From Cetorhinus maximus (lineage: Eukaryota): a DNA stretch of 64,000 bases. Where the stretch lies: the NCBI RefSeq assembly GCF_964194155.1, contig NC_135891.1:102300001-102364000 (forward strand), given 5' to 3'. Both the position numbers and the translations under genes were made by a program. Below are positions 4,421-42,083 of the stretch, piece after piece; position 1 is the stretch's first letter; each line of letters starts with the position of its first letter. The notes beneath the pieces are model-generated. The model was given only the letters and a program-made list of their open reading frames with translations. It had not been told where the DNA came from and searched no databases.

Positions 4421-4717
4421 TGTTGTATGATGTTGTATGTGCCTGCATGCCATTGTCGTGTAAAGGTGCTCAGCAGAACAAGGATTAAAGTGGGACTGGA
4501 GAATAGCATCGCTCACAGTATGATGCATAGTCACATGGTAATAGACTCAGAAGTCAAGAGAGTACACTCTGGAACCTACCTGGAGGTAACAGTACCATGC
4601 ATGACAGTAACCTGGGATCTGTAAATAGTTAAAGGTTAACAACAAAGGGTTCATGTTTAAAAATACAAGTCTCAAGATCTCATCATTGAGACATCTAAAG
4701 AATCCATGTTTACAACA
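4421..4717 (+). repeat. 5' LTR
   Basis: Aligns by eye along its length with 7928-8199 (gcctgcatgccattg...ctggaacctacctg...gacagtaacctgggatctgtaaatagttaaaggttaac...gagacatct.aagaa.ccat...acaaca). Starts with a duplicated tgttgtatg. Confidence 0.9.
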
Positions 4718-4735
4718 TGGTAGGCAGTGGTGGGA
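4718..4735 (+). promoter_or_regulatory. Primer binding site, tRNA-Leu-like
   Basis: TGGTAGGCAGTGGTGGGA abuts the LTR end and matches the complement of a vertebrate tRNA-Leu 3' end (TGGTGGCAGYGGTGGGA) with a 1-nt insertion. Confidence 0.7.
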
Positions 4736-6119
4736 GCTCCTAAAAGATATCACATTAACCCAGAATTGTATCTCAAGGTATGAAACACTAAAAGCAGCTG
4801 CAGCCAAACTAGAGAGACGTGTACCTAAGGAGAAAACTTGAAGAAACAATTGCAGAAGTTTCTCTACAGCCTTAGAAGTTGAGGGATTCATCAGAGTGAG
4901 TGGTAGCTTATTGCAAGAACCCCAAGTGACATAGAGCAAAATGGAAAAAAAAACCTGGTCGGATCACACTGACAGGTAAGCAAAAATACAAAAATTGCAA
5001 AATCCCGAGTGACGCAGAATTAAGGAACCTGGTCAGATACGGGTGAGCAAAAGTACAAAAAAATAGCTGTACTTACATTATGGAATAGGTGGCAGTCCCA
5101 CGGCACAGCATAACCATAGAGCAGCTGGAAGACAGTTGCAAGCTAAAAAACCCTATAAAAATAAAATTGGCTGGCAGGGTTGAGAAAGAAACATGCAGGG
5201 CACAATAAAAAAAAAGGAAAATGCCTGCAGAGTTTAAGAGACAGGGAACCCCCTTTCAGTGGGGAAAAAAAAAGTTTCTTATCAAAGACCAAAAATAGAG
5301 ATCGCTACTGTTCAAGAGTTTAAGACAAACAGCGCAGGGTAAAAACAAAACAACGAAACCTGTAGAGCTGACAGCTCGTGGCTTCCAAGAAAAACGCGCA
5401 CCCACCGAAACTCTCAAAACGCCACGGTCAAAGAGACCTGCAGGGTTTAAAGAAAGAAAGAAAGAAGAAGTGCTGCAGTGATTTCTCTAAAGTTTTAAAG
5501 AAGGCCCATGATCACAGGGATACCAAAAAAGTGCAGCAAAAATTACTGGGAGAAAACCAGCAGGCTGCAGACAGCCCCCAAAGTTCAAAATAAACAGGAT
5601 CTACAGAGTTCAAAAAGAAGAAAAGAGAAGAATGCGCTGCAGCTTAAAATTTTTTTAAAAAACCTACAGCCGCGATCACTGGGAAGCCTGTCAAAAGTCA
5701 GAAAAGTGCAGGAAAATCAGTGACAGAACCGACTGCTGCAGATAGCCTGGAGTGAAAAAAAATGGTTACTGCAATAACAGTCTTAAAGGGGTAATGAAAT
5801 TTAAAGCTGTAACTATAAGAAAACACAAACAGCCATCTACAGCACATTAGATGAGCCAGGCACATTTCTGCTATGGAAAGGGCTAATGCAGACCCAAGAG
5901 TGGGAGTCTTGATAAGACAAATTTTAATTTACAGAAGAACCGCAAGATTAAATAAGGAATAAGTAGTACAAGTTGTTGAGTTTTTATTCATCTTGGTGGT
6001 TCATTTGCTGGCGAAGTACTCCACAGTCAACGTATAAATCCATATTCAACATTTGGTGAGATATTAAAAGGCTTTGATAGATATTCTAAACTCTCAGTAA
6101 AACACAGAGTAACAAGAGG

Positions 6120-6212
6120 CCCCAGAGAGAGGGGGCAACCAAAAGACCCCAGAGAGAGAGAGAGGGGGCACCAAAAGACCCGAGAGAGAGGGGGCACTAA
6201 AAGACTCCAGAG
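6120..6212 (+). repeat. Three ~28-32 bp tandem units inside the LTR element
   Basis: ccc(a)gagaga(ga)ngggggca(a)c(c/t)aaaagac repeated three times just upstream of the captured coiled-coil segment. Confidence 0.85.
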
Positions 6213-6299
6213 CTAAGGAGTAAGATGGCAGTACAGAGTGAGCAGATAGCTATGCATGAAGGAAAGCTGAGGTAAATCAAAAGAAGCAAAAATGTGTAA

Positions 6300-7198
6300 A
6301 CATCAAATGAGGCTGTTCTACAGGAAAATGTTCTCATCAGAGCTGAACTGGAAGATCTGAAGTGTAAGATTCATGCTGAATGTATACCTCTGAAAACACA
6401 CAATACATCGAAGTCTTCAATGAACCAAACTGTTCAAGATCTGAACAAAACTTTCAGAGATGGCACAAAGGTGCCAGCCAGAGATAACAACCATCAATTT
6501 CACAGTTGGAAAATCAAAGTAGGATTGGGAAAACTTAACCAAATGTACAGCCAGGCAAAACAGCAGGCAGAAAAGGCACGCAAAGAAGTTGCGACCCTGA
6601 AAGACTCCTCGAAGAATCAATATGTAGCCATGGAAAAACATGTGGAGCTAAAAAGAATGTTGAATATTACTTCAGAAAAAGTGGTGCTGAAATTATCAGT
6701 AGCAACAAAATGACGCAATGAAGCCCAGAGTGAGTTGGCAAGAGGTCAACAAGAAAACAAAATTGAAAGAACTGATTGTGCCTCAAGATCAAATGCAAAA
6801 GGAATGCGTAACCATTCAGCAACATGAAGAAATGAAGACCGTCTTATACAGCAGAATGGAAGCATGGCAGAAGAAACTCGAGGAGACTACTGAATTACAG
6901 GAAAACTCAAGACTAAGCAAGCAAGCTTCACAAAGAAAAGGAAAACCTGTTGAAAGACCTTCACATGTTACCAGAATTCCTTCGGACAAAGTTTATTCCT
7001 CTGGAAAATTACGAAAAGGAAAATGAATTTAACGTCACTCTGAACAAACTGAAGAACCAGTTGGCAGAGAAGACCCAGCAATGTTCAATATTCTAGGAGG
7101 AAGCTGAAAGCTACAAGAAACAGACTGAAGAGCTGATGAAGCAGTTGAATGAAAAAGAGGCATTGAAAGGAAAAGCCATAGCGCTTTTCAAACCGTGA
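6300..7198 (+). pseudogene. Decayed UACA-like (UACA/RAI14/ANKRD24 family) coiled-coil fragment inside the LTR element
   Basis: Collinear frameshifted segments QENVLIRAELEDLKCKIHAECIPLKTHNTSKSSMNQTVQDLNK / LKDSSKNQYVAMEKHVELKRMLNITSEK / QDQMQKECVTIQQHEEMK / EFLRTKFIPLENYEKENEFNVTLNKLKNQLAEKTQQCSIF*EEAESYKKQTEEL resemble the recalled UACA coiled-coil repeats (e.g. NQYVPVKTHEEVKMTLNDT; LKDQLSEQTQKYSVSEEE). Confidence 0.72.
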
Positions 7199-7927
7199 GT
7201 GGATAATGAAGTCATAAATTGCACAGCTACAGAACTGAAACAAGATAAGACTTCGCCGGAGAGACCTAGCCAGCCGTGAAACCAAAATGAAGGACAAGGA
7301 TAAAGTTGCTGGCAGAAAAAGAAAAGACAGAAATACGATTGGAAAATGTAAATCCAACACTGAAGTGCAAGGAACTGGAAGGAGAAACAGCACTGGATGT
7401 CTCAGATGTGCTGAGAGCTACTGCGCTGAATGAAAAGATTCAGAAGCTTGCAGAACGATTTGCAAATAAAACAGCGAAGAAATGTTTGGCTGAAATTGGG
7501 AAACAAGTGGAAATGAAGGTTCTATTTATAAAACGTCCATGTTCAGTAAGAGCATGGCGGACACCATGGAAAAAGAAAATTTGAGTCCGCTCTAGGATTG
7601 AATAGAGCACACATTCCCATCAGAAGGAACGGGGCAGACCCACAGTGTTTGAAAAAAAGCAGACAAGTTTTTAAAAAAGAGAAACGCAACTCGAAGGAGT
7701 GCAAAAAGTGAATCAAATGGAGACAGTCAAGTACCAGAAACACAGAGTACTACCACCATTCCTCCAAAAATGACAGACAAAGATGTGGAAGAACCGTCAA
7801 GCCTTAAGACCATCTGAATTTATAAAGTCAGAGACTTGATACGGGGAGAACGGACAGCAAGTAAAGATAATATTACAAATAGTTATGCTCCGTTGAAAGG
7901 GAAAGTTTTCTTTGGAGAAGAGGGGGG

Positions 7928-8199
7928 TCATGGCCTGCATGCCATTGATATGTAAAGGTGCTCAGCAGAGCAAGGTTTAATGTGGGACTGGAGAATTGCA
8001 TCGCCCACACTATGATGCAGAGTCACATGGCAATAGACTCAGAGAACAATCTAGAGAATACACTCTGGAACCTACCTGCACCATGCATGACAGTAACCTG
8101 GGATCTGTAAATAGTTAAAGGTTAACAATAAAGGGTTCATGTTTAAATATGAAAGTCTCAAGATCTCATCGAGACATCTGAAGAACCCATATCACAACA
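7928..8199 (+). repeat. 3' LTR (preceded by polypurine tract 7914-7927; contains AATAAA)
   Basis: Direct repeat of 4421-4717 ending ACAACA; AATAAA at about 8127. Confidence 0.9.
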
Positions 8200-41695: not shown

Positions 41696-42083
41696 CGGGG
41701 GATGGTGGCTTAGTGGTAATGTCACTGGACTAGTAATCCAGAGGCCCAGGCTAATGCTCTGGAGACATGAGTTCAAATCCCATCATGGCAGCTGGTGGAA
41801 TTTAAATTCAATTAAAATGAAACTGAAGTTTCAGTAATTGCAACAAGGAAACTATTAATTGTTGTAAAAGCCTATTTGGTTCACTAATGCCCTTTAGGGG
41901 AGGAAATCTGCCATCCTTACCTGGTCTGGCCTACATGTGGCTCCAGACCCACAGTAATGTGGTTGACTCTGAACTGCTCTCTGCAATGGCCTAGCAAGCC
42001 ACTCAGCTCAAGGGCAATTAGGGATGGACATCAAATGCTGGCCTTACCAGCAATGCCCACATCCCATGAAATAGTAAAAAAAA
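41696..42083 (+). mobile_element. HE1-type tRNA-derived V-SINE, full length
   Basis: A box tggcttagtgg, B box gagttcaaatcc, V core, tail caagggcaattagggatgg...cccacatcccatgaa and A-tail. Confidence 0.88.

What the first reader, a model, noticed from the sequence alone, without database searches (positions are those of the whole stretch)
4421..8199. Pol-less LTR retroelement whose cargo is a captured UACA-like host coiled-coil segment
Seen: two ~280 bp LTRs, a tRNA-Leu-like PBS and a PPT, with no RT/IN motifs between them. About 0.9 kb (6300-7198) translates across frameshifts into four collinear repeats of the form [KQ]xx[YCF][IV]xxxx[HY]xxxK, with no intron-sized gaps. Recalled knowledge: these match in order the central coiled-coil of vertebrate UACA (family UACA/RAI14/ANKRD24). 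Inference: an LTR element transduced part of a host gene and may have spread as a non-autonomous family. Such gene capture is known in plants and oncoretroviruses, but I know of no such shark family. It lies antisense in a REXO1 intron, so REXO1 pre-mRNA would contain antisense UACA-like sequence.
Basis: partly seen in the sequence, partly recalled or inferred. Interest (0 to 1): 0.85.

Follow-up and report, generated by a model that had tools for sequence, protein, structure and literature searches.

The report
Shark retrotransposon fusing two host genes
This is one decayed copy of an old, widespread shark retrotransposon family that lacks its own copying enzymes and carries pieces of two host coiled-coil genes (UACA and the nuclear-pore protein TPR) joined to the start of its capsid gene in one reading frame, which was likely translated and kept by selection while the family spread.

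Summary
Window 4421-8199 has two LTRs (8% apart), a tRNA-Leu-type primer site and a polypurine tract, no pol, and lies antisense in a REXO1 intron. 6261-7249 is three pieces of the host's single 2.7-kb UACA exon (75-78% DNA identity), so 'no introns' says nothing there. New: the frame starts in a Gypsy gag N-terminal remnant and runs on into host TPR. Older subfamilies join seven TPR exons across 15 kb without introns, proving mRNA capture. About 116 UACA-bearing copies were examined; searches list thousands of candidates; the same junction occurs in a catshark. Copies decayed neutrally (omega 1.01) and all 33 aligned ones are broken. Yet over 491 codons their shared frame has no family-wide break except one CpG-prone codon, where about 10 would be expected, and founder-lineage UACA changes are conservative (p=0.0006). 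That signal was not significant for TPR or between subfamilies. Best reading: a non-autonomous Gypsy family whose Gag-coiled-coil fusion likely helped its own RNA into helper particles (mechanism inferred). LTR capture of host mRNA is known; this scale and selection in a vertebrate Gypsy were not found in ten searches.

The parts
4421..4717 (+). 5' LTR with TG...CA ends
4718..4735 (+). Primer binding site, tRNA-Leu type (assignment recalled); same type in pol-bearing Gypsy relatives
4736..5834 (+). A-rich leader, variable between copies; no protein family found
5835..6110 (+). Broken remnant of the first ~95 codons of a Gypsy gag
6113..6212 (+). Repeat linker; in the family the unit spacing is mostly a multiple of 3 (166 of 210; 24 nt commonest)
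6261..6470 (+). UACA piece 1 (about residues 694-769 of the Carcharodon protein), 76% DNA identity to the host exon
6481..7147 (+). UACA piece 2 (about 801-1026), 78%; follows a 102-nt deletion shared by the family
7132..7249 (+). UACA piece 3 (about 1174-1210), 75%; follows a 450-nt deletion shared by this subfamily
7250..7425 (+). Coiled-coil-like middle segment of unknown origin (about 115 codons in older copies); neither UACA nor the held TPR region
7426..7467 (+). TPR remnant, weak (74%, E 0.005); stronger in sister copies
7477..7537 (+). TPR remnant matching the last captured host exon (80%, E 3e-12)
7538..7708 (+). Lys/Arg-rich end of the family's shared frame
7780..7822 (+). Stretch resembling the last codons of a Gypsy pol (motif likeness only)
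7914..7929 (+). Polypurine tract
7930..8199 (+). 3' LTR; flanking 5-bp target duplication decayed here (3 of 5 bases)

Best explanation
This is a decayed copy of an old pol-less Gypsy-type LTR family of sharks in which the start of gag is joined to pieces of the host genes UACA and TPR (TPR copied from spliced mRNA) in one shared reading frame that was likely translated and kept by selection, likely because the fusion protein helped its own RNA into particles made by a pol-bearing helper. Shown: anatomy, both donors, intron loss in TPR, many copies, neutral decay after insertion, an open shared frame. Inferred: capture by template switching in a helper's particle (0.85); translation and protein-level selection in the founder lineage (0.75); stepwise in-frame trimming into subfamilies (0.85). 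Least sure (about 0.4): the Gag N-terminal domain would dock on helper Gag, the long coiled coil would oligomerise or space, and the basic tail would hold the RNA that made it. A benefit in cis is argued because a trans-acting benefit would be shared by cargo-less competitors.
For: Donors: UACA; TPR by Pfam PF25481 over cut-off in 3 of 11 peptides scanned and by 10 of 20 copies aligning in one piece across six host exon junctions that span 15 kb. Gag: a profile of copy peptides hits 8 of 20 integrase-anchored loci at full-sequence E up to 0.42 (best 2e-6), all on the integrase strand upstream of it; profile-to-sequence probability 92%, E 6e-7; one such locus has protease, RT, RNase H, integrase in Gypsy order. 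Frame: 1 of 334 UACA codon columns and 0 of 156 downstream columns have a stop in half the copies, against 17 and 30, and 13 and 10, in the other frames; 0 of 243 in TPR; each copy has since gained on average 4.8 frameshifts and 4.7 non-CpG stops over a branch (about 0.15) shorter than the stem (0.20). Links in frame: gag to linker 29 of 49, linker to UACA 39 of 63. Stem changes conservative: mean BLOSUM 0.80 against 0.09 expected from the same mutation types, p=0.0006; like host-lineage changes.
Against: End-to-end gag-to-UACA phase is not enriched (21, 14, 19 of 54); only short-step tests are. Shared TPR changes are not significantly conservative (p=0.15) and synonymous excess between subfamilies is not significant (8:18 against 129:476, p=0.33). 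41 of 189 host-invariant UACA sites changed, about as often as variable sites, so UACA's own function was not kept. In-frame deletions are weak evidence: 48-96% of microhomology pairs in these genes are in frame anyway. No helper sharing the LTR was found. No intact copy among 33. The docking and RNA-binding steps are untested.
Confidence: 0.5

Rival explanations
1. The frame was kept open only because translation protected the RNA (escape from nonsense-mediated decay); the protein did nothing useful.
For: Subfamilies differ freely in which UACA and TPR pieces they keep; no significant residue-level constraint in TPR or between subfamilies; conserved host sites changed as often as variable ones.
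Against: Stem changes in UACA are conservative after matching mutation type (p=0.0006); 0 of 39 go to proline against 34 of 538 neutral singletons (alone not significant); the gag N-terminus is retained in three diverged LTR types.
Confidence: 0.25
2. The selection signal predates capture: the donor was a lost UACA duplicate or a host chimeric retrogene, and the element carried it passively.
For: The stem cannot be split into time in the host and time in the element; significant constraint was seen only on the UACA stem.
Against: Only one UACA giant exon in this genome (1 match, 150 of 201 candidates scored); the open frame extends through gag, linker, middle segment, TPR and tail, which are element-level joins; basal copies sit close to the host branch.
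Confidence: 0.13
3. The cargo worked through TPR biology: a TPR fragment that aided nuclear export of the element's RNA or blunted silencing at the nuclear basket.
For: TPR is a nuclear-basket protein tied to mRNA export and, through SPOCD1, to piRNA-directed transposon methylation in mouse (PMC7618654, passages).
Against: SPOCD1 binds TPR residues 775-877, whereas the captured part is the N-terminal coiled coil around PF25481; the abundant subfamily of this window deleted most of TPR.
Confidence: 0.1
4. This insertion matters to the host through antisense UACA-like RNA in REXO1 transcripts.
For: The geometry is real and the insertion is shared with at least one other species.
Against: The copy is 75-78% identical to UACA, intronic, broken, and decays like the rest.
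Confidence: 0.02

Closest known systems
LTR-mediated retrocopies in animals (Tan et al. 2016, PMC5131818; passages read)
   Same: Host mRNA pieces between LTR-element parts, intron loss, several parental genes in one chimera, sense orientation, often in frame.
   Different: Those cases are young and single or few-copy; here an ancient family with at least about 116 examined copies and thousands of candidates, several subfamilies, and signs of selection on the fused frame.
Maize Bs1 (as described in PMC5131818)
   Same: Pol-less LTR element with pieces of several host genes that went on transposing with shared switch points.
   Different: Bs1 has one to five copies, is in plants; here a vertebrate Gypsy family orders of magnitude more numerous with coiled-coil cargo only.
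Crocodilian ERVs CrocERV29 (KIT-ligand) and CrocERV31 (nectin3) (PMC4299795; passages read)
   Same: Ancient vertebrate LTR elements that captured host mRNA, with purifying selection on the cargo.
   Different: Those are retroviruses, 6-9 copies, whole host ORFs as separate genes; here a Gypsy-type element, fragments fused to Gag, pol lost.
Gag-onc fusions of acutely transforming retroviruses, and TPR-kinase fusions (both recalled, no call)
   Same: Truncated Gag fused in frame to host sequence, helper-dependent; TPR's N-terminal coiled coil as a portable oligomerising part.
   Different: No kinase or signalling domain, no env, germline amplification rather than tumour outgrowth.
Host-gene fragments incorporated into TE proteins (PMC3597677; passages read)
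   Same: Captured fragments under selection inside TE proteins.
   Different: That survey does not contain the words UACA or coiled (0 occurrences in the main text; supplements not read).

Membership tests
Ty3/Gypsy LTR retrotransposon, non-autonomous | Paired LTRs with TG...CA ends, primer site, polypurine tract | tested here: met
Ty3/Gypsy LTR retrotransposon, non-autonomous | Target-site duplication | tested here: met
   perfect 5 bp in 6 of 11 readable solo LTRs, 12 examined; decayed at this copy
Ty3/Gypsy LTR retrotransposon, non-autonomous | Gag homologous to that of elements with PR-RT-RH-IN order | tested here: met
   Pfam, the representative search and fold searches gave no independent match (56, 70, 97, 114)
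Autonomous Gypsy element | Own pol (RT, RNase H, integrase) | tested here: not met
Mag clade of Gypsy | RT phylogeny with reference elements | not testable with these tools
   likeness of gag, LTR ends and 5-bp duplication is recalled; no reference set; one search found no paper
Endogenous retrovirus | Retroviral gag/pol and env | tested here: inconclusive
   no env-like ORF or Pfam hit and the gag matches Gypsy-order elements; no RT tree was made
LTR-mediated retrocopy | Host exons joined without introns inside the element | tested here: met
   TPR: six junctions in 10 of 20 copies; UACA cannot be tested, single exon
LTR-mediated retrocopy | Microsimilarity at element-to-host switch points | not tested
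   only internal deletions were examined: 6- and 9-nt matches in UACA, a 13-nt repeat in TPR
UACA | Best hits are UACA, collinear, not generic coiled coils | tested here: met
   4 of 4 hits; DNA-level match to the single host exon
TPR | PF25481 and exon-by-exon match to the host gene | tested here: met
TRIM / LARD (definitions recalled) | Interior without coding capacity | tested here: not met
   shared open frame of at least 490 codons

The most novel reading that the evidence does not exclude
A vertebrate retrotransposon parasite built a new protein from the Gag N-terminal domain and two or three captured host coiled coils, and used it in cis to board helper particles, reaching thousands of copies in galeomorph sharks: host structural proteins domesticated by a transposon, the reverse of Gag domestication.
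Probability: 0.4. Interest if true: 0.9.

Novelty: new variant of a known kind. Interest (0 to 1): 0.78.

Why it matters
Gene capture by LTR elements in animals is known mostly as rare, low-copy events. Here one capture lineage became a major repeat family, and its dated series of subfamilies records mRNA capture, exon shuffling of unrelated genes and trimming under an open-frame constraint. It makes a standing question testable from genomes alone: do transposons gain from the host sequence they carry? Practically, these copies will confuse UACA and TPR annotation and read mapping in sharks (a catshark copy is already filed as a hypothetical protein; family contigs pile onto the host exon).

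Tried and rejected
Nei-Gojobori dN/dS among copies gave 0.54; rejected as a composition artefact, since a codon model gives 1.01 and 0-fold and 4-fold sites diverge alike. Stem dN/dS could not be split from the host branch; laying another species' contigs on the host exon was swamped by family copies. Helper search: none of 20 LTR-first loci had a pol interior (7 cargo, 2 truncated, 10 solo, 1 tandem array); 30 integrase loci gave no LTR or tail match beyond the locus that supplied the query; related pol-bearing elements share the primer type but not the LTR. Gag remnant: no hit among 1.84 billion representatives, low-confidence model (pLDDT 53), no clear fold match. Middle segment: no source in Pfam, PDB, longer proteins, the Atlas or the held host regions; an own-genome search returned only full-length family-like matches (40 scored of 1356). 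A -449 value for the second deletion is an alignment-end artefact (-450 in 25 of 33 with distant anchors); a -91 value and two stops came from a missed host exon, corrected. Expression: no RNA holder listed; one guessed RNA run held only short family-like pieces. The first tree run timed out; the tree uses 11 of 33 copies. Earlier-findings look-ups were empty.

Full report
Observation. The element is real: LTRs at 4421-4717 and about 7930-8199, 22 mismatches in 263 bases, a primer site of tRNA-Leu type (recalled) and a purine tract. No pol domain is present. REXO1 exons flank it on the minus strand.

UACA cargo. A sister copy's 208-residue ORF finds only shark UACA proteins (4 hits of 1023 candidates, best E 8.6e-42). 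The host gene is single and encodes residues 408-1315 in one 2.72-kb exon, 94.7% identical to the Carcharodon protein. The window's cargo is three pieces of that exon at 75-78% DNA identity. All 33 mapped copies have the same three blocks, separated by deletions of 102 and 450 nt. Because the source is one exon, lack of introns is uninformative here.

A family. The cargo search scored 40 of 4792 candidates, all 80-85% alike apart from one short piece at 72%; protein searches filled their 150 scored places from 7201, 3651 and 2451 candidates. These are lower bounds, not copy numbers. About 116 distinct UACA-bearing copies were held. Of 20 loci picked by LTR, 7 had cargo, 2 were truncated, 10 were solo LTRs, 1 had a tandem array, none had pol. 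Six of 11 readable solo LTRs have a perfect 5-bp target duplication.

Gag remnant. Upstream of the cargo lies a peptide that Pfam and a 1.84-billion-protein search do not recognise. A profile of natural copy peptides does hit the 5' ends of pol-bearing elements in the same genome, on the integrase strand (profile comparison 92%, E 6e-7). One of these has protease, RT, RNase H and integrase in Gypsy order. They share the primer type, not the LTR, so they are relatives; the helper itself was not found. Mag-clade likeness is recalled, not tested.

Second cargo: TPR. An older group of copies with LTRs about 70% like this one carries a longer coiled coil after UACA. It passes the Pfam cut-off for the TPR domain PF25481. 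The host TPR gene was located and 120 kb fetched. Ten of 20 copies align in one piece over about 640 nt across six exon junctions that span 15 kb, then two more exon pieces after deletions of 96 nt and of 159 or 186 nt, depending on a host exon limit. This is direct evidence of capture from spliced mRNA. The window's subfamily lost most of TPR and keeps remnants at 7426-7467 and 7477-7537. A segment of about 115 codons between UACA and TPR in some subfamilies has no identified source. Subfamilies differ in which UACA and TPR pieces they keep.

Age. A tree of 11 copies and five host proteins places the family near the lamniform-carcharhiniform split; origin from this genome's own recent lineage is rejected (AU p=0.005), as is a Mustelus sister position (0.010), while three deeper placements are not told apart. 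A Scyliorhinus torazame protein has the middle-to-TPR junction of this subfamily, though its LTR context could not be seen. This very insertion is shared with another species: contigs of run X14 cross from flank into both LTRs at 95-97% identity.

Selection. After insertion the copies decayed neutrally: omega 1.01, star-like tree with 5% internal length; none of 33 is unbroken over the 491 codons examined. The founder differs. In the UACA register only 1 of 334 codon columns has a stop in half the copies (a CpG-prone codon, 19 of 33), and 0 of 156 downstream, against 17, 30, 13 and 10 in the other frames; 0 of 243 in TPR. No small frameshift is shared inside the blocks; a 1-nt gap in 12 copies lies at the edge of homology. 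The stem is 0.20 substitutions per residue, longer than the tips (about 0.15), on which each copy gained about 9.5 breaks; the chance of none is 7e-5 at equal length and 0.008 at half. Short-step tests put gag, linker and UACA in one frame (29 of 49, 166 of 210, 39 of 63), although the end-to-end test across the indel-prone linker does not (21 of 54). Stem changes in UACA are conservative (p=0.0006 after matching mutation type). Against: no such signal in TPR (p=0.15) or between subfamilies (p=0.33); host-invariant sites changed as often as variable ones (41 of 189); and in-frame deletions are expected from microhomology alone.

Mechanism. Shown: two donors, RNA route for TPR, amplification without pol, open shared frame. 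Inferred: co-packaged host mRNAs were copied in by template switching in a helper's particle, as described for animals in PMC5131818; later switches at short repeats trimmed the cargo. The protein probably needed to be a coiled coil, not UACA or TPR as such. A pol-less element gains from a protein mainly if it acts on its own RNA, so I favour a Gag-headed, coiled-coil, basic-tailed adaptor that joined helper capsids (about 0.4 for this step). Rivals: translation only for RNA stability (0.25), selection in a lost host duplicate (0.13), TPR-specific action at the pore (0.1; in mouse SPOCD1 binds TPR 775-877, outside the captured part, PMC7618654). The window's copy itself is most likely inert.

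Known and new. LTR capture of host mRNA, multi-gene chimeras and secondary spread are known (PMC5131818; Bs1), as is selected cargo in crocodilian ERVs at 6-9 copies (PMC4299795) and in TE proteins generally (PMC3597677); for all four papers cited I read passages only, no supplements. Ten searches listed no paper on a UACA- or TPR-bearing shark element; repeat libraries such as Repbase and Dfam were not searchable and may hold an unannotated entry. Verdict: new variant of a known kind, interest 0.78.

Noticed in passing
L067:829-1180; L092; L096: An LTR of this family followed by a tandem array of a short unit made of the LTR end plus the primer site, in at least three loci.
   Followed up: no
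G000:C2:181.90 Mb (L174): A second locus with EloA-BP1 exons, a REXO1 paralogue.
   Followed up: no
L256:4402-4854; L211:2010-3277: Single copies with internal duplications: TPR exons inserted inside a UACA piece; repeated UACA parts.
   Followed up: partly
L253, L259, L236: Variants that keep UACA exon nt 1997-2278, which this window's subfamily lacks, so the founder held a longer piece or captured more than once.
   Followed up: partly
L177-L196: A large pol-bearing Gypsy family with the same primer type, about 210-bp LTRs, all seen copies broken (150 scored of 26,414 candidates).
   Followed up: partly
window 41699-41790: A tRNA-Thr-like call by ARAGORN inside REXO1, possibly a SINE head.
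   Followed up: no
L103, L099, L254: LINE-type RT fragments inserted into family copies (type recalled from motifs).
   Followed up: no
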